This document shows positions 7,079-45,305 of a stretch of 64,000 nucleotides of DNA, piece after piece; position 1 is the stretch's first letter; every line of letters begins with the position of its first letter. The stretch spans positions 6,320 through 70,319 of the forward strand of contig CACYVN010000005.1 in NCBI GenBank assembly GCA_902777855.1. Reading direction: 5' to 3'. Position numbers and translations under genes: made by a program. Under the pieces are notes generated by a model. It had not been told where the DNA came from, made no database searches, and saw nothing but the letters and a program-made list of their open reading frames with translations. The DNA comes from an uncultured bacterium (GTDB lineage: Bacteria > Cyanobacteriota > Vampirovibrionia > Gastranaerophilales > Gastranaerophilaceae).

Positions 7079-7719
7079 TGATTAAATCAAAAACTCCGTT
7101 TTCTATTCTTGATTATGTTTACAAAATATATCATAAAGATGCAGGCAAAATGTTGATTCACACCGGTACTATAAGCTGGATATTGTCTTCTGCCGCACAA
7201 ATTTTCGGAATTATGATAAATGATAAAATTCCTAAGGAACAAAAAATGTTTCTTATTCCTCAGGAATTTGCAGATGCTGTTTTTAATATACTGTCATTTT
7301 ATATCGTTACATGTTCATTTACCGGAGTTGCCGCAAAAATGGTAAATACAGGGAAATGGCTTCCAAGCAACGTTAAAAATTATCTTATTAAAAACGGATT
7401 TAAAGATAAAATTGGAAAATTCGGTTTTAACATTTTAAAGGATGCAAAACTTACAGGCAGAGCAAAAAGAAGTTTTGAATTATATAAAAACGGTATCGGA
7501 GTACTTGCTTTTACCGCCGGTTCAATTTTATCATGCAATGTTATCACTCCGCTTTCAAGAAACAAATATGCTTCCGCTCGCCAACAGCAAAATCTTGCAA
7601 GTCTTAATAATCCGAATCCCGCATTACAAAATCCTCAAACACATCGTGAAAAAGCAAAAGCCGTAATTCATCACAAATATATGCAGGCATTTATGAATCG
7701 GGGAGATTTAAAAATATAA
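7078..7719 (+). CDS. Hypothetical membrane protein
   Basis: 213 aa with several hydrophobic helices. Translationally coupled to the upstream gene. Confidence 0.55.
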   Translation: MIKSKTPFSILDYVYKIYHKDAGKMLIHTGTISWILSSAAQIFGIMINDKIPKEQKMFLIPQEFADAVFNILSFYIVTCSFTGVAAKMVNTGKWLPSNVKNYLIKNGFKDKIGKFGFNILKDAKLTGRAKRSFELYKNGIGVLAFTAGSILSCNVITPLSRNKYASARQQQNLASLNNPNPALQNPQTHREKAKAVIHHKYMQAFMNRGDLKI

Positions 7720-9412: not shown

Positions 9413-9461
9413 AAAAGACCCCATTTCTGAGGTCTTTTAATAGAATTGCTCCAGGCCAGAC
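9413..9461 (-). repeat. Duplicate of the tRNA-Leu T-loop-to-3'-end (15 nt) plus its terminator
   Basis: The 49 nt at 9413-9461 match 9607-9655 with 2 mismatches. Both mismatches keep the terminator hairpin paired. The tRNA-derived part is tgctccaggccagac (9447-9461). Confidence 0.85.
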
Positions 9462-9606
9462 CAAGCCGAGCAGAGCCACAAATTCATTAGTGAGAGCCGA
9501 CAATTATGCCTGCAATGAATATTCAGGCTAATTGGAGGCGGTGGCGTTTACTGCGAGGCGCAGTAGTCTGCCACGTTGCAGAAAATCCATTTTTACTGCA
9601 ACGTAT
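9462..9606 (-). ncRNA. Candidate structured RNA / cassette body between the two tRNA-Leu 3'-end copies
   Basis: 145 nt, GC-richer than its surroundings, no credible ORF. On the minus strand it has an 8-bp hairpin cgttgcag/ctgcaacg. It also has a nested helix gtggc..(actgcg-cct-cgcagt)..gccac and a 7-bp attcatt/aatgaat helix. It ends in a tRNA-like 3' end plus a terminator. I did not recognise its family. Confidence 0.25.
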
Positions 9607-9632
9607 AAAAGACCTCATTTTTGAGGTCTTTT
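9605..9632 (-). terminator. Intrinsic terminator of tRNA-Leu
   Basis: Minus strand: agacctca-aaaa-tgaggtct followed by a T-run. Confidence 0.75.
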
Positions 9633-9640
9633 AATAGAAT

Positions 9641-9727
9641 TGCTCCAGGCCAGACTTGAACTGGCACCGAGGTTGAGCCCCGATTGGATTTTAAGTCCAA
9701 CGCGTCTACCGATTCCGCCACTGGAGC
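9641..9727 (-). tRNA. tRNA-Leu (anticodon UAA), type II with long variable arm
   Basis: Minus strand: GCTCCAG TG GCG-GAATCGGTAGA-CGC G TTGGA CTTAAAA TCCAA (variable arm) GCCAG TTCAAGT CTGGC CTGGAGC A. The cloverleaf is fully paired. CCA is not encoded. Confidence 0.92.
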
Positions 9728-9769
9728 ACGGTTTGTGTTATTTAATTGTCAATTTTGTTCTGCTTGAGT

Positions 9770-9832
9770 GCGTCTACCGACCTCTCGAAAAACAATACTT
9801 AATTGTTTTTCTCGGCAGAGTGCCACTGGAGC
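9770..9832 (-). pseudogene. tRNA-Leu 5' fragment (acceptor 5' strand plus D-arm) with a 41-nt insertion in the D-loop
   Basis: GCTCCAGTGGC (9832-9822) and TCGGTAGACGC (9780-9770) are identical to the tRNA. The GGAA of the D-loop is replaced by 41 nt (9781-9821) containing a 10-bp hairpin. The upstream 25 nt (9833-9857) duplicate 9728-9752 with 2 mismatches. Confidence 0.7.
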
Positions 9833-9907
9833 ACGGTTTGTATTATTTAGTTGTCAAACTTGCCCAATCAAGCAACAAATAGATAGTATTATAAACATTC
9901 ACCGATG

Positions 9908-35585: not shown

Positions 35586-35658
35586 GCGCTTGTAGCTCAG
35601 CAGGTAGAGCACTCCCCTTTTAAGGGATAGGTCGCGCGTTCGAATCGCGCCAAGCGCA
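35586..35658 (+). tRNA. tRNA-Lys (anticodon UUU)
   Basis: GCGCTTG TA GCTC AGCAGGTA GAGC A CTCCC CTTTTAA GGGAT AGGTC GCGCG TTCGAAT CGCGC CAAGCGC A. 73 nt. CCA is not encoded. Confidence 0.92.
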
Positions 35659-35662
35659 TATT

Positions 35663-35694
35663 AAAAGAGATAACCTTTATGGTTATCTCTTTTA
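35663..35694 (+). terminator. Intrinsic terminator of tRNA-Lys
   Basis: agagataacc-tttat-ggttatctct 10-bp stem followed by a T-run. Confidence 0.8.
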
Positions 35695-35697
35695 ATA

Positions 35698-35880
35698 TAT
35701 GTTTGACGACGAATTGAATGCACTTGCGTTCGAGCGAGGGGCGAGCAGAGGGCGAAGCAGATTTTGCTTGTGGCTTGAAGCCACTTAAAGCAAAATGCGT
35801 AGTCCCGTTTATTGCGAGCCCCTCAAGACAATCGCGCCAAGCGCAAAATAAAAAGGATAGATTTTTCTATCCTTTTTATT
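35698..35880 (+). repeat. Cassette A: GC-rich body, then a 16-nt copy of the tRNA-Lys T-loop-to-3'-end (35830-35845), then its own terminator (35851-35880)
   Basis: AATCGCGCCAAGCGCA is identical to 35643-35658. Terminator aggatag-attttt-ctatcct plus a T-run. The body contains a 9+5-bp hairpin at 35761-35795. Confidence 0.8.
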
Positions 35881-36220
35881 TTTGTTTAGGTAGCGATGAG
35901 AACGCCGTTTTGCGTTCGGCGGATTTTGACAATAGTGAAGTGAGCGACAGGTTACAAAATAAAAAGTTTGCGAAAACATCAATCTGTCTGAAGGACAAGT
36001 GAGCAAACTTTTTCGTGTGGATTTGATATTGATATAAGCGAAAGGAACTATTATGGTGAAAGGTTTGATGGAGCGACTGTTTATGCGTTCAGCATAAACA
36101 AAGCGGAATGCTAAAACCTTGAACTGTCAAAATCCAAGACAATATATTAAAATTTGCGCGCCCCTCAAGACAATCGCGCCAAGCGCAAAATAAAAGAGGT
36201 CATAGTGACCTCTTTTATTT
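35881..36220 (+). repeat. Cassette B: about 290-nt body, then a 16-nt tRNA-Lys 3'-end copy (36172-36187), then its own terminator (36192-36220)
   Basis: The last roughly 40 nt (gcgcgcccctcaagacaatcgcgccaagcgcaaaataaaa) are nearly identical to the end of cassette A. The terminator stem differs (gaggtca-tag-tgacctc). Confidence 0.8.
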
Positions 36221-36367
36221 TGTGGATTTGCAAAGTTTCAAACGTAAATGTGCGTTCGGAACAAGCGAGGCAAAGCCGGAACGGTTTTGCTTGTGGAACA
36301 CTTGCCACTAAAGGCAAAACGTGGAGTGCTGTCGATGGCGAGCAAAGTAATTAATCGCGCCAAGCGA
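36221..36367 (+). repeat. Cassette C: body homologous to cassette A, then a 14/16-nt tRNA-Lys 3'-end copy (36353-36366), no terminator
   Basis: tgcgttcgg..agcgagg..gttttgcttgtgg..ccactaaaggcaaaac..gcgagc aligns with cassette A. It ends in aatcgcgccaagcgA. Confidence 0.75.
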
Positions 36368-36395: not shown

Positions 36396-36953
36396 CTATA
36401 TCTCAATATATTTTCTTGCACATTCAAGCATAGAATTTAAAAGTGCAGCGTTTGAAGTTAAATTCATTCCATTAATTTCAAGCACCTGTTTAATGCGATC
36501 TTCCCAGAGATTATAAATATCTGTTCTGTCTAAATCAAGTATTTCACCTATCATTAGCAATTCCTTTAAATCAATCGGCAAAGGATATGCCCCTCTTAGC
36601 ATATCGACAATATGTACACGTTTTTTTCTGGGGAATGATTTCAAAAAATTTACCACACTCATTTTTTTCTGCTTTAAGGTATTTTTTATAAATTCAACAG
36701 AATAATCTTTGAGTATAGGTTCCTGTGGTATCTTATATTCTTCAAATTCTTCAGGAGCAACATCCATAACCGTTGCAATACGTTCTAATGTACTTGAACG
36801 GGTAGAAAACGGTATTGTTTCATCTATCAAATTGTAGACATAAGACAGAGTCACTCCTATCATTTCTGCAAAATCTTTTTTATGCAGAGAATTTTTCTCC
36901 AAAAAATCAATAACCTTTTGTGAACTTTTTTCTTTAGTGGTTTCATTTTTCAT
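36396..36953 (-). CDS. XRE-type helix-turn-helix domain protein
   Basis: KKDFAEMIGVTLSYVYNLIDE HTH near the N-terminus. 185 aa with an unknown C-terminal domain. Confidence 0.65.
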   Translation of the reverse strand: MKNETTKEKSSQKVIDFLEKNSLHKKDFAEMIGVTLSYVYNLIDETIPFSTRSSTLERIATVMDVAPEEFEEYKIPQEPILKDYSVEFIKNTLKQKKMSVVNFLKSFPRKKRVHIVDMLRGAYPLPIDLKELLMIGEILDLDRTDIYNLWEDRIKQVLEINGMNLTSNAALLNSMLECARKYIEI

Positions 36954-44815: not shown

Positions 44816-45030
44816 AACCGTATTTTAGCATAAAATCAAATTTTTCGCCGAATGGCTCACTACTATAGAGTAGTGACGATTTAGAGGAATTTTCAAAATT
44901 TGAAATGTAATTTATAATTTTAATAATAAGCATAAGCAAGTGTAATTTATTACAGCGTTTGATACAAAATGAAAGCGAGGCTTATGAAGAAACTAAATTA
45001 AGATAATTATATAGCAGTTGCCGCAACATG

Positions 45031-45122
45031 GCATTGCGAGCCCATCATGGTGTGGCAATCCGGCTATTTGTTAACATGATACGGATTGCTTCATCGGCAA
45101 TCCCTTACCTCCTCGCAATGAC
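45031..45122. repeat. Palindromic CATTGCGAG...CTCGCAATG mini-repeat (REP/MITE-like)
   Basis: cattgcgagcccatcatggtgtggcaatcc...ggattgcttcatcggcaatccc..ctcgcaatgac. Terminal 9-bp inverted repeats and internal gcaatcc/ggattgc pairs. GC-richer than the flanks. Confidence 0.7.
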
Positions 45123-45210
45123 AGATTGCGGAGGGATTTATGTAAATTTCTACACCCGCTCTGACGGGACGAAAGTAAGCGGTTACTACCGTTCAAAACC
45201 AAAATATTAA
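45118..45210 (+). CDS. Possible 30-aa peptide with YxRxDGTxVxGYYR motif
   Basis: The ATG lies inside the right arm of the repeat. MTDCGGIYVNFYTRSDGTKVSGYYRSKPKY. The longer 45028 ORF in the track is translated through the repeat and is probably an artefact upstream of this Met. Confidence 0.3.
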   Translation: MTDCGGIYVNFYTRSDGTKVSGYYRSKPKY

Positions 45211-45305
45211 CTGTAAATTTTACGTTACATTATTCCAAAATTTTTAAAGTTTTTCCATGCTTTATACGAATATATTTTTATATTCGTATTTTTTAAGGAA
45301 CTTTA

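What the first reader, a model, noticed from the sequence alone, without database searches (positions are those of the whole stretch)
9413..9655. tRNA-Leu is followed by a 194-bp unit ending in a near-perfect copy of its own T-loop-to-3'-end plus terminator
On the minus strand the order is tRNA-Leu(UAA), then its terminator, then a 145-nt GC-richer body (9606-9462), then a second copy of the tRNA 3' segment and terminator. That second copy comprises the last 15 nt of the tRNA (from inside the T-loop) together with the spacer and terminator. It spans 9461-9413 and matches 9655-9607 at 47 of 49 positions. Both differences lie in the terminator: one converts a stem pair to a G-U wobble and the other falls in the loop, so the hairpin is kept. 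The body folds into at least three clean helices and has no credible ORF. Unlike a plain integrase scar, the identity extends 34 nt beyond the tRNA end. The unit therefore looks like a 194-bp module that could have entered by recombination across a 49-bp identical segment. Taken with the tRNA-Lys array, this suggests a common mechanism or element class targeting tRNA T-loops.
Basis: partly seen in the sequence, partly recalled or inferred. Interest (0 to 1): 0.68.

Follow-up and report, generated by a model that had tools for sequence, protein, structure and literature searches.

The report
Small structured cassettes stacked behind tRNA genes
Behind a leucine tRNA gene of an uncultured rumen bacterium (Gastranaerophilales) sits a 194-bp gene-less cassette that ends in a copy of the tRNA's last 15 bases; related bacteria carry the same kind of cassette, other cassettes or none at this site, so it looks like a new, very small kind of insert that uses the end of a tRNA gene as its docking site.

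Summary
In detail: window 9655-9607 and 9461-9413 (minus strand) match at 47/49 positions, and the copy starts in the T-loop of tRNA-Leu(UAA).

The interpretation needs correcting. In relatives carrying the same body (L107) or a different one (L010), the identity covers only the last 15-20 nt of the tRNA. The 34-nt extension into the terminator is therefore local homogenisation in this lineage.

The unit belongs to a family of promoter-less, ORF-less cassettes in rumen Gastranaerophilales. Each is [trailer + terminator][95-290-nt body with conserved folding][last 14-17 nt of the neighbouring tRNA]. They occur singly or in arrays behind tRNA-Leu (two unrelated body types) and behind tRNA-Lys (three in this window).

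Close relatives have empty sites. Bodies evolve far more slowly than neighbouring synonymous sites, and helices covary. A genuine 4.7-kb integrase element at the same tRNA-Lys leaves a different, 42-nt anticodon-loop fragment.

Best reading (confidence about 0.4): integrase-less mini-cassettes gained, multiplied and lost by recombination through the tRNA-derived handle. The enzyme and the role of the body are unknown. The main rival is a resident ncRNA co-transcribed with the tRNA.

The parts
9641..9727 (-). tRNA-Leu(UAA), intact, no encoded CCA. Its last 15 nt (9655-9641) are repeat copy A, the 'handle'.
   Evidence: Rfam 61.9 bits; ARAGORN.
9607..9640 (-). Proximal trailer plus intrinsic terminator (AAAAGACCTCA-AAAA-TGAGGTCTTTT). 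In relatives it travels with the body.
   Evidence: Inverted repeat I13. The same terminator type precedes the same body in L107, where the distal terminator is of another type. Terminator plus body is 95.5% identical between the window and L107.
9462..9606 (-). Type-A body: 145 nt, 47.6% G+C, no credible ORF, conserved fold. It has an extra 5' hairpin (9604-9573) that the A' variant in L110 lacks.
   Evidence: Fold z = -3.6. Consensus structure with five compensatory pairs between A and A'. Model R2 finds it only behind tRNA-Leu.
9447..9461 (-). Repeat copy B: displaced copy of the last 15 nt of tRNA-Leu (T-loop nt 59 to the discriminator).
   Evidence: The segment is 15/15 identical in every Leu cassette of types A, A' and B except one strain SNP in L002.
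9413..9446 (-). Distal trailer plus terminator, the native one of this lineage, followed by the C_GCAxxG_C_C gene (9377-8919).
   Evidence: Same terminator (GACCTCAGAAATGGGGTC) distal in L010. Orthologous single terminator at the empty site of L013.
9756..9862 (-). 5' module: promoter-like TTGACAA box, then tRNA nt 1-11, then a covarying A/U-rich hairpin, then a D-arm-like GGTCGGTAGACGC. It mirrors the 3' cassette on the other side of the tRNA.
   Evidence: Direct repeat D2. Present in 1-4 tandem copies in L008-L017, L107 and L108, with an invariant 21-nt core and a covarying hairpin.
35586..35658 (+). tRNA-Lys(UUU), intact.
35659..35845 (+). Lys cassette 1: terminator, then body b1 (35703-35829), then the last 16 nt of tRNA-Lys (35830-35845).
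   Evidence: Model R1, 150.9 bits.
35846..36187 (+). Lys cassette 2: terminator, then body b2 (286 nt; its two ends match the family and its middle is unique), then the last 16 nt of tRNA-Lys.
   Evidence: R1 hits both ends.
36188..36366 (+). Lys cassette 3 (the most distal and most decayed): terminator, then body b3 (alpha variant), then 14 nt of tRNA-Lys. The following base is changed and there is no terminator after it.
   Evidence: R1, 52.9 bits.

Best explanation
The 194-bp unit is one copy of a family of very small, integrase-less cassettes. In rumen Gastranaerophilales they dock at the 3' end of particular tRNA genes.

**Build.** A cassette is [trailer + intrinsic terminator] + [structured, non-coding body] + [last 14-17 nt of that tRNA, from T-loop nt 57-60 to the discriminator].

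**Proposed mechanism.** The tRNA-derived segment is the recombination handle. A circle or tandem copy [handle-terminator-body] recombines with the identical segment in the tRNA gene (Campbell type). The tRNA is thereby rebuilt with the cassette's terminator. The previous tRNA end with its terminator is pushed downstream, behind the body. Repeats of this build arrays with the newest cassette next to the tRNA. Recombination between handles multiplies or deletes cassettes.

**The 47/49 identity.** In this window the identity reaches into the terminator because the two copies have been homogenised, not because that stretch belongs to the docking site.

**The body.** It is kept by selection, most simply as an RNA read through from the strong tRNA promoter. 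In the fitted consensus structures the tRNA-like tail lies outside the helices in the Lys family and is drawn as a local hairpin in Leu types A and B.

**Shown**
- The cassette anatomy.
- Occurrence only behind the cognate tRNA.
- Filled, empty and alternative alleles at the same site.
- Copy-number variation.
- Slow evolution of the body and covarying helices.
- A difference from a real integrase scar.

**Inferred**
- The recombination route.
- Transcription by read-through.

**Unknown**
- The recombinase. It could be a T-arm-specific tyrosine recombinase acting in trans, or host recombination on the conserved tRNA sequence.
- What the body does.
For: **Anatomy and repeat**
-.

**Same site in relatives of known phylogeny**
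- L008, L012 and L013 are empty: tRNA, one terminator, then the next gene.
- L010, 95% identical in patatin to the empty L008, holds a different 127-nt insert with only a 20-nt repeat.
- L108 (71% identical) holds two tandem copies of that type.

**Metagenome hits**
- L107 has the window's body, but with the proximal terminator conserved and the distal terminator of the 'empty-site' type.
- L110 has an A' variant.
- L109 has one full unit plus a truncated second body.

**Body families**
- Body types A and B are not detectably related: model R2 finds only A and A'.
- So unrelated cargo ends in the same handle at the same site.

**Lys locus**
- One to three cassettes per genome.
- Proximal cassettes are intact.
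- Distal cassettes have mutated or truncated handles and lack terminators.

**Distribution**
- All Lys bodies form one family.
- They occur nowhere else in 295 kb of related sequence.

**Constraint**
- Terminator plus body is 95.5% and 96% identical between sister species.
- Third codon positions next door are 76% and 70% identical; flanking spacers are 64-74% (window vs L107; the L010/L106 distal spacer is 91.5%).

**Structure**
- Seven Lys units: 85.8% of cells paired against 26-37% when partners are slid, nine pairs with changes on both sides, 0/500 shuffles as high.
- Five compensatory pairs in Leu type A versus A'.

**Contrast with a real integrase element**
- The real 4.7-kb integrase element at tRNA-Lys in L168 displaces a 42-nt fragment that starts in the anticodon loop.
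- Its arms are A+T-rich with TGTCGTA repeats.

**5' side**
- tRNA-Leu carries mirror-image modules that bring a promoter-like box plus tRNA nt 1-11, in 1-4 tandem copies.
- This is the logic of inserts that must restore the gene they dock in.
Against: - No recombinase, transposase or RNA-guided nuclease lies among about 40 ORFs of the window or beside any cassette.
- No autonomous element with a T-loop crossover and a matching arm was found.
- No circular or extrachromosomal copy was seen.
- The direction of change (gain or loss) cannot be fixed. L008 and L010 also differ in the whole spacer down to the next gene, so alleles may simply be exchanged by homologous recombination between related species.
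- Slow evolution of the body fits a resident functional RNA equally well.
- The array in L109 ends inside a body, and that in L108 ends inside a terminator. A pure site-specific route does not predict this.
- Only two tRNA loci could be examined.
- The covariation rests on few independent sequences, and alignment A8 was fitted to the model.
Confidence: 0.4

Rival explanations
1. A resident non-coding RNA co-transcribed with the tRNA. The body is an ordinary, vertically inherited small RNA gene in the tRNA's read-through transcript. Its tRNA-like 3' tail arose by a partial duplication. The tail is kept identical by gene conversion, or because it gives the RNA a tRNA-type 3' end (cut after the discriminator, CCA added). 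Copy number changes by unequal crossing-over between the short repeats. Patchiness reflects loss and allele exchange between related species.
For: - The body evolves much more slowly than neutral sites, and its helices covary.
- It is always on the tRNA's strand, always directly behind the cognate tRNA, and has no promoter of its own.
- In L010 and L106 there is no good terminator between the tRNA and the body, so the two must be co-transcribed.
- The Lys family is present at the same locus in species down to 74% identity of the flanking protein.
- The two terminator copies within one genome are homogenised.
Against: - Two unrelated body families (A and B) occupy the same tRNA-Leu site and end in the same 15 nt.
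- Sister genomes differ as filled versus empty.
- Distal copies decay.
- The tail is no more complementary to the body than to shuffled bodies, so a tRNA-like acceptor/T-arm helix that processing enzymes would need is not supported.
- Most cassettes sit behind a terminator.
Confidence: 0.27
2. An ordinary scar. The copy of the tRNA end is the displaced fragment (attR) left by a prophage or island that integrated in the T-arm. The 145-nt body is what remains of that element after deletion of its interior.
For: - An intact tRNA plus a downstream same-strand 3' fragment starting in the T-stem/T-loop region is the textbook signature. The T-stem region is one of the two common crossover subsites (PMC4383910).
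- tRNA-Lys in this clade is a live integration site.
Against: - There is no integrase or gene remnant.
- At least eight independent cassettes all measure 125-340 bp.
- Bodies are conserved at 95-96% where neutral sites are at 64-76%, and they keep covarying helices. Decaying remnants would not do this.
- The real integrase element leaves a 42-nt anticodon-loop fragment and A+T-rich repeat arms that do not resemble the bodies.
- No viral contig, phage or plasmid shares the body.
Confidence: 0.08
3. Guide-RNA genes. Each body is the scaffold of an RNA guide (TnpB omega-RNA or Cas12-crRNA style). The 14-17-nt tail is a guide matching the tRNA gene. It would be used by an RNA-guided nuclease or transposase encoded elsewhere to home to, or hold on to, the tRNA site. 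[quoted passage not shown]
For: - The form fits: a conserved structured scaffold of about 100-130 nt, then a 14-17-nt stretch identical to the neighbouring gene and lying outside the helices in the Lys family, then a terminator.
- The tail tends to be less complementary to its own body than chance (p = 0.90-0.98 in three Lys units).
- Unrelated scaffolds carry the same tail.
- V-K elements keep a separate truncated crRNA for their tRNA attachment site (PMC11406308).
Against: - No RuvC, TnpB, IscB, Cas or transposase gene lies in the window or next to any cassette.
- The start of the match varies between T-loop nt 57 and 60, so there is no constant TAM/PAM.
- No Rfam match.
- Such guides normally lie inside their element.
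Confidence: 0.07
4. A plain local tandem duplication with no function. Replication slippage or unequal exchange duplicated the tRNA end plus terminator around a piece of spacer.
For: The two copies are adjacent, direct and nearly identical in this window. L108 shows a fresh tandem duplication.
Against: - A tandem duplication predicts tRNA-X-body-fragment-X-body, with the array ending in a body. The window, L107, L010 and L106 end in fragment plus terminator.
- The module is conserved across species, with different distal terminators.
- The same build occurs at tRNA-Lys.
Confidence: 0.04

Closest known systems
Genomic islands and prophages integrated in tRNA genes by tyrosine integrases (tDNA plus displaced 3' fragment; Islander definition, PMC4383910)
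   Same: - An intact tRNA gene rebuilt by the insert, which supplies the 3' end and a terminator.
- A downstream, same-strand copy of the tRNA end.
- Identity starting in the T-arm region.
- Tandem accretion, with older units further away.
- A 5'-fragment counterpart also exists.
   Different: - No integrase and no genes.
- 125-340 bp instead of kilobases.
- The cargo is a conserved structured non-coding body.
- The real island found at tRNA-Lys in this clade crosses over in the anticodon loop (42-nt fragment), not in the T-loop.
CIMEs and other non-autonomous integrative elements (att-flanked, integrase-less, mobilised in trans; from my own knowledge of Streptococcus thermophilus CIME/ICESt elements)
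   Same: They are flanked by att-type direct repeats, lack an integrase, and would depend on a recombinase supplied in trans.
   Different: - CIMEs are kilobase-sized deletion derivatives of a recognisable ICE. Here no parent element is known.
- The units here are an order of magnitude smaller, carry no ORF, and occur in arrays.
Integron cassette arrays (attI, promoter Pc, promoter-less cassettes each ending in a folded attC)
   Same: - Promoter-less units in a single orientation behind a fixed site next to a strong promoter.
- Each unit carries a structured element of 60-140 nt whose folding is better conserved than its sequence.
- The newest unit lies next to the entry site.
- Cassettes can be empty of genes.
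   Different: - No integron integrase.
- The boundary sequences (GTCTGGC..., AATCGCG...) do not fit the R''/R' cores RYYYAAC/GTTRRRY.
- The bodies are multi-helix rather than one long hairpin.
- The repeated core is 14-17 nt of a tRNA.
[quoted passage not shown]
   Same: Scaffold followed by roughly 16 nt identical to a nearby tRNA gene. The link with tRNA attachment sites is shared.
   Different: - No effector gene.
- No transposon ends.
- No constant TAM/PAM.
- The cassettes stand alone directly behind the target itself.
Small RNAs made from tRNA operon spacers and trailers (e.g. 3'ETS-leuZ of E. coli; from my own knowledge)
   Same: An RNA released from the transcript of a tRNA gene and encoded directly behind it.
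   Different: Those RNAs are the trailer itself. They have no copy of the tRNA end, are not repeated, and do not vary as present or absent between close relatives.

Membership tests
tRNA-integrated genomic island (tyrosine-integrase island, Islander criteria) | An intact tDNA plus a cognate 3' fragment downstream in the same orientation. | tested here: met
tRNA-integrated genomic island (tyrosine-integrase island, Islander criteria) | The fragment begins at a recognised crossover subsite (anticodon loop or T-stem region). | tested here: met
   Starts at T-loop nt 59 in the window, and at nt 57-60 in other cassettes. The subsites are described in PMC4383910.
tRNA-integrated genomic island (tyrosine-integrase island, Islander criteria) | An integrase gene between the tDNA and its fragment. 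| tested here: not met
   Only 145 nt lie between them, with no ORF. No Phage_integrase hit in about 40 window ORFs. Positive control: L168 has one.
tRNA-integrated genomic island (tyrosine-integrase island, Islander criteria) | Multigene cargo of kilobase size. | tested here: not met
   All cassettes measure 125-340 bp.
Non-autonomous integrative element (CIME-like) | An autonomous relative with the same att site and a cognate integrase in the same or related genomes. | tested here: inconclusive
   None was found in viral contigs, phages, plasmids or the fetched loci. The one integrase element found uses another crossover site. Whole genomes could not be searched.
Non-autonomous integrative element (CIME-like) | Excision as a circle and re-integration. 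| not testable with these tools
   This needs reads or PCR across the circle junction.
Integron cassette / attC | Integron integrase with attI and Pc. | tested here: not met
   No integrase of any kind in the window.
Integron cassette / attC | R'' RYYYAAC and R' GTTRRRY cores at the ends of a single imperfect hairpin. | tested here: not met
   Read directly from the boundaries. The bodies have several helices.
TnpB omega-RNA / Cas12-type guide RNA | A conserved scaffold followed by an unpaired 3' guide of about 16 nt. | tested here: met
   In form only.
TnpB omega-RNA / Cas12-type guide RNA | A cognate RuvC-type effector gene overlapping or adjacent. | tested here: not met
TnpB omega-RNA / Cas12-type guide RNA | A constant TAM/PAM 5' of the target. 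| tested here: not met
   The match begins at nt 57, 58, 59 or 60 of the T-loop, depending on the cassette.
Any curated RNA family (Rfam 15) | A covariance-model score at or near the gathering threshold. | tested here: not met
   Only the two tRNAs are found. The best other hits on the Leu unit have E > 5; the best sub-threshold hit on the Lys array has E = 0.013, well below its gathering score.
tRNA-like RNA (tmRNA-type or minihelix mimic) | A 5' strand pairs with the tRNA-derived 3' strand to give an acceptor/T-arm-like helix. | tested here: not met
   Best duplex energy between tail and body is no better than with 300 shuffled bodies (z between -1.6 and +1.8). ARAGORN finds no tmRNA.

The most novel reading that the evidence does not exclude
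tRNA genes of Gastranaerophilales may serve as cassette platforms analogous to integrons. The T-loop-to-3'-end segment would be the entry site, and the tRNA promoter would drive the array. The cassettes would be tiny structured RNAs, or folded single-stranded DNA sites. They would be captured, shuffled and lost through a recombination system not yet described. That system might be guided by the cassette's own RNA, whose free 3' tail matches the docking site.
Probability: 0.12. Interest if true: 0.9.

Novelty: new variant of a known kind. Interest (0 to 1): 0.6.

Why it matters
tRNA genes are the classic docking sites for large mobile elements. Here the same signature (a rebuilt tRNA plus a displaced 3' fragment) surrounds units of only about 150-340 bp. 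These units have no genes and no recombinase, yet they are conserved, structured, and variable in presence and number between close relatives.

If they are mobile, they are the smallest tRNA-docking elements described. They would also point to an unknown trans-acting, T-arm-specific recombination activity in an uncultured gut and rumen phylum. If they are resident RNAs, they are a new RNA family physically tied to two of the tRNAs (Leu-UAA, Lys-UUU) that read A/U-rich codons, expected to be common in this 35% G+C genome.

There is a practical consequence too. These repeats break metagenome assemblies at tRNA loci. They would also be miscalled as island scars by fragment-based island finders.

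Tried and rejected
1. **Closing helix / tRNA minihelix mimic.** By eye, each body seemed to start with a strand complementary to the tRNA-derived tail (GGCAGAC / GTCTGGCC and similar). The best duplex energies between tail and body are no better than with 300 dinucleotide-shuffled bodies in 11 cassettes. Rejected.

2. **Bodies derived from the tRNA.** By eye, bodies seemed to contain the T-arm 5' half (GCGTTCGA, CCAGTTCA) or the variable arm, as if the insert had split a T-arm. Local alignment of seven bodies against the rest of the tRNA gave p = 0.2-0.85. Rejected.

3. **Phage attP.** No low-G+C viral contig carries the tRNA-Leu end. All 42 hits to the 15-mer were chance hits in contigs of higher G+C (41-70%), mostly within coding sequence.

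4. **Body motifs in viral contigs.** Hits to AAACGCCACCGCCTCCA and CATACAGGCTCACAC were chance only.

5. **Left end of the real tRNA-Lys element in viral contigs.** No hits.

6. **BLAST of the unit against phage and plasmid collections.** No match.

7. **Leu type A and type B as one family.** A MAFFT/alifold alignment suggested a shared 3' block. The type-A model does not find type B at E <= 1. I treat them as separate families.

8. **Leu and Lys bodies as one family.** The Lys model gives only E = 0.04 hits on the wrong strand of the Leu unit.

9. **Promoter inside the unit.** The consensus scan found none on the tRNA strand within 9413-9606.

10. **Strain-level copy-number variation in this species.** Contigs carrying the identical flanking proteins stop inside the repeats. 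The patatin look-up found no exact record.

11. **DGR, retron, primer-binding-site and integron-core readings.** I considered these from the sequence. They were dropped because there is no reverse transcriptase, no complement of CCA next to the copy, and no GTTRRRY core.
Full report
**1. The observation**

On the minus strand the order is as follows:
- tRNA-Leu(UAA) at 9727-9641 (Rfam 61.9 bits; ARAGORN adds one base at each end).
- A 34-nt trailer with an intrinsic terminator (9640-9607).
- A 145-nt body (9606-9462).
- A second copy of the last 15 nt of the tRNA (9461-9447).
- A second trailer and terminator (9446-9413).
- The C_GCAxxG_C_C gene (9377-8919).

The two 49-nt stretches match at 47/49, and at 49/52 if extended. 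Both differences are A->G. One lies in the terminator loop. The other makes a U-G pair in the stem.

No such two-copy pattern arose in 100 shuffles of the window. The body is 47.6% G+C in a 34.8% window. It folds better than all 200 shuffles (z = -3.6). It is unique in the window and has no Rfam match even at E <= 10.

**2.

The 5' side of the same tRNA is also duplicated. Window 9862-9822 repeats 9757-9717 (41 nt, 90%). This stretch holds a TTGACAA box, the leader and tRNA nt 1-11. It is followed by a hairpin and by GGTCGGTAGACGC, which resembles the D-arm.

The only other tRNA in the window is tRNA-Lys(UUU) at 35586-35658. Three units follow it, each built as terminator, then body, then the last 16, 16 or 14 nt of tRNA-Lys. 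Both tRNA loci of the window therefore carry this architecture. They are also the two G+C-richest intergenic stretches of the window (42% overall, against 17-33% for the others).

**3. Organism and context**

The flanking patatin-like protein finds its relatives in rumen and gut MAGs of Gastranaerophilales / Melainabacteria. The best match is 84-85% identical.

About 40 of the largest ORFs of the window are housekeeping genes. There is no integrase, transposase, TnpB/Cas or reverse transcriptase.

**4. The same site in relatives**

The synteny patatin, tRNA-Leu is conserved in 16 species representatives.

- **Empty sites.** L008, L012 and L013 have the tRNA, one terminator and then the next gene.
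- **Type B.** L010 is 95% identical to the empty L008 in patatin. It has a different insert (type B, 127 nt). There the repeat is only AAGTCTGGCCTGGAGCATTT (20 nt), and the distal terminator is identical to the window's distal terminator.
- **Native terminator.** L013's single terminator is the orthologue of that distal terminator. The distal copy is therefore the native tRNA end, and the proximal terminator came with the body.

A scan of metagenome contigs for two copies of the tRNA end 126-186 nt apart gave five loci:
- L107 holds the window's type-A body in a sister species. Its proximal terminator is of the window's type, and its distal terminator is of the L008/L012 'empty-site' type.
- L110 holds a variant, A'.
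- L106 holds type B.
- L108 holds type B in two tandem copies of 145 bp.
- L109 holds one copy plus a truncated second body.

A covariance model of type A finds A and A' but not B. Two unrelated bodies therefore end in the same 15 nt at the same site.

The tRNA-derived 15 nt are perfect in all Leu cassettes except for one strain SNP. The terminators on either side can be entirely different. The 34-nt extension of identity in this window is therefore not a property of the family.

Within the window's own species, the two terminator copies carry different combinations of the two A/G states in different strains. This is what gene conversion between the copies would produce.

**5. The tRNA-Lys locus in relatives**

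These loci were reached through homologues of the upstream 235-aa protein.

- L157 has the tRNA, a terminator, and only a degenerate start of a unit.
- L158 has two units, and the distal one has a truncated handle.
- L162 has one unit.
- L165 and L166 have one unit with a decayed handle.

A model built from four b1-type units recovers every Lys unit, including the alpha/b3 variants (52-61 bits). It finds nothing else in 295 kb of related sequence and no Leu unit.

On the seven Lys units, 85.8% of cells in the 22 modelled pairs are standard pairs. The figure is 26-37% when partners are slid. Nine pairs show changes on both sides, and 0 of 500 shuffles reach the observed covariation score. A caveat applies: the alignment was fitted to the model.

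The long-range helix reads GAGGGGC/GCCCCUC in the window, GAAAUGC/GCAUUUC in L158 and L168, and CUUGCC/GGCGAG in L165. The tRNA-derived tail lies outside all helices.

**6. A control for the 'scar' reading**

L168 carries a real integrative element between tRNA-Lys and the same downstream genes as in the window (HTH, pth, TPR). The same element is seen in L160, L164 and L167. L167 belongs to the species of L165 and L166, which lack it.

The element is 4.7 kb and holds small ORFs, a GerE regulator and a 377-aa tyrosine integrase. Its displaced fragment is 42 nt and starts in the anticodon loop. Its arms are A+T-rich with TGTCGTA repeats. A b1-type mini-unit lies just beyond it.

Integrase scars in this clade therefore look different from the cassettes.

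**7. Constraint**

| Segment | Window vs L107 | L010 vs L106 |
|---|---|---|
| tRNA and handle | 100% | 100% |
| Proximal terminator + body | 95.5% | 96% |
| Third codon positions of the next gene | 76% | 70% |
| Distal spacer | 64% | 91.5% |
| Upstream region | 74% | not measured |

The bodies are either under purifying selection or spread recently. In neither case are they decaying remnants.

**8. Ideas that failed tests**

- The impression that each body begins with a strand pairing to the tail (a T-stem/acceptor mimic) does not survive a shuffle test.
- The impression that bodies contain pieces of the tRNA's T-arm or variable arm does not survive one either.
- No viral contig, phage or plasmid shares the tRNA-Leu end in a low-G+C context, the body motifs, or the unit.

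**9. Interpretation**

The common denominator is a cassette: [trailer + terminator][structured body][tRNA handle].

Insertion of such a cassette by recombination within the handle gives exactly what is seen:
- an intact tRNA that now uses the cassette's terminator;
- the body;
- the old tRNA end with the native terminator.

Repetition gives arrays with the newest unit next to the tRNA and decaying units further away, as in the window, L158 and L165. Recombination between handles gives tandem copies (L108) and empty sites.

The mirror-image 5' modules carry a promoter-like box and the tRNA's first 11 nt. They occur in 1-4 tandem copies, with an invariant 21-nt core and a covarying hairpin. They follow the same logic on the other side of the gene.

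I put about 0.4 on this 'integrase-less mini-cassette' reading. Four things are not shown:
- which enzyme acts (none is encoded nearby);
- whether circles exist;
- whether the body acts as an RNA (it has no promoter and usually sits behind a terminator, though not in L010 and L106);
- the direction of change at each node, since alleles of the whole spacer may be swapped between species by homologous recombination (L008 versus L010).

The main rival (0.27) is a resident, tRNA-co-transcribed RNA family whose copies change in number by unequal exchange. Scar (0.08), guide RNA (0.07) and plain duplication (0.04) follow.

**10. Comparison with known systems, and novelty**

The cassettes share the tDNA-plus-displaced-fragment signature and the T-arm subsite of tRNA-targeting islands (PMC4383910). 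They fail the integrase and size criteria. They resemble CIMEs in lacking an integrase, integron arrays in layout, and TnpB/CAST guides in 'scaffold plus 16 nt of a tRNA' (PMC11406308). They fail a defining feature of each.

I therefore rate this a new variant of a known kind. There is a modest chance (about 0.12) that it is a new cassette or RNA-guided system.

My interest score is 0.6. The finding is real, recurrent and conserved, and a specialist would find it odd. Its mechanism remains inferred, and only two tRNA loci could be examined.

Noticed in passing
window 9756-9862 (-); also L008 7276-7495, L010 6552-6856, L011 7257-7470, L107 1-212, L108, L109: A conserved module of about 105 nt lies upstream of tRNA-Leu. 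It consists of a TTGACAA box, then tRNA nt 1-11 within an invariant GCTCCAGTGGCACTCTGCCGA, then an A/U-rich hairpin with compensatory changes, then GAGAGG..GGTAGACGC (D-arm-like). It occurs in 1-4 tandem copies, each followed by the next promoter-like box. It is absent from the human-gut relatives L018 and L020-L023, and a vestige remains in L019.
   Followed up: partly
window 35659-36366 (+): An array of three cassettes lies behind tRNA-Lys(UUU), each with its own different terminator. All bodies belong to one covarying family that is also found in L158, L162, L165 and L168. The most distal unit has a mutated handle and no terminator.
   Followed up: yes
L168 10870-15783 (also L160/L161, L164, L167): A 4.7-kb integrative element is inserted in tRNA-Lys. 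It holds a tyrosine integrase, a GerE-type regulator, an HK97-gp10-like ORF, and TGTCGTA arm repeats at both ends. It leaves a 42-nt displaced fragment that starts in the anticodon loop. It is present or absent within one species (L167 versus L165/L166).
   Followed up: partly
L001, L003, L004, L006, L009, L011, L016, L159, L171 (contig ends); L002 1-60: Short-read metagenome contigs end exactly at or inside these tRNA-end repeats and 5' modules. L002 starts with a fold-back chimera at the terminator hairpin. tRNA loci of this clade are therefore systematically fragmented in assemblies.
   Followed up: partly
window 9607-9640 vs 9413-9446, compared with L004 and L006: The two A/G differences between the terminator copies occur in other combinations in other strains of the same species. 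For example, L004 and L006 have GGGG in the proximal copy and AAAAATGGGG in the distal copy. This suggests ongoing gene conversion between the copies.
   Followed up: partly
window 44816-45305: A 490-nt intergenic stretch upstream of the 1106-aa LysM protein has a local G+C peak (51% around 45092). It has no Rfam match at E <= 0.1.
   Followed up: partly
L014 about 7640-7670 and L110 about 255-285: A shared palindromic motif (CAGGCTTTAGCCTG with CCTACAAAC nearby) lies downstream of the tRNA-Leu locus in two different genomes. It may be a dispersed hairpin repeat of this clade.
   Followed up: no
L023 (CAVAPR010000011.1): This contig is labelled 'Candidatus Methanomethylophilaceae archaeon'. 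Yet it carries the Gastranaerophilales patatin gene (60% identity) and the same bacterial tRNA-Leu(UAA). It is probably a mis-binned contig.
   Followed up: no
window 36396-36953 (-): A 185-aa Cro/C1-type HTH protein always lies directly beyond the tRNA-Lys cassette array or integrated element and before pth (window, L157, L168). Its role is unknown.
   Followed up: no
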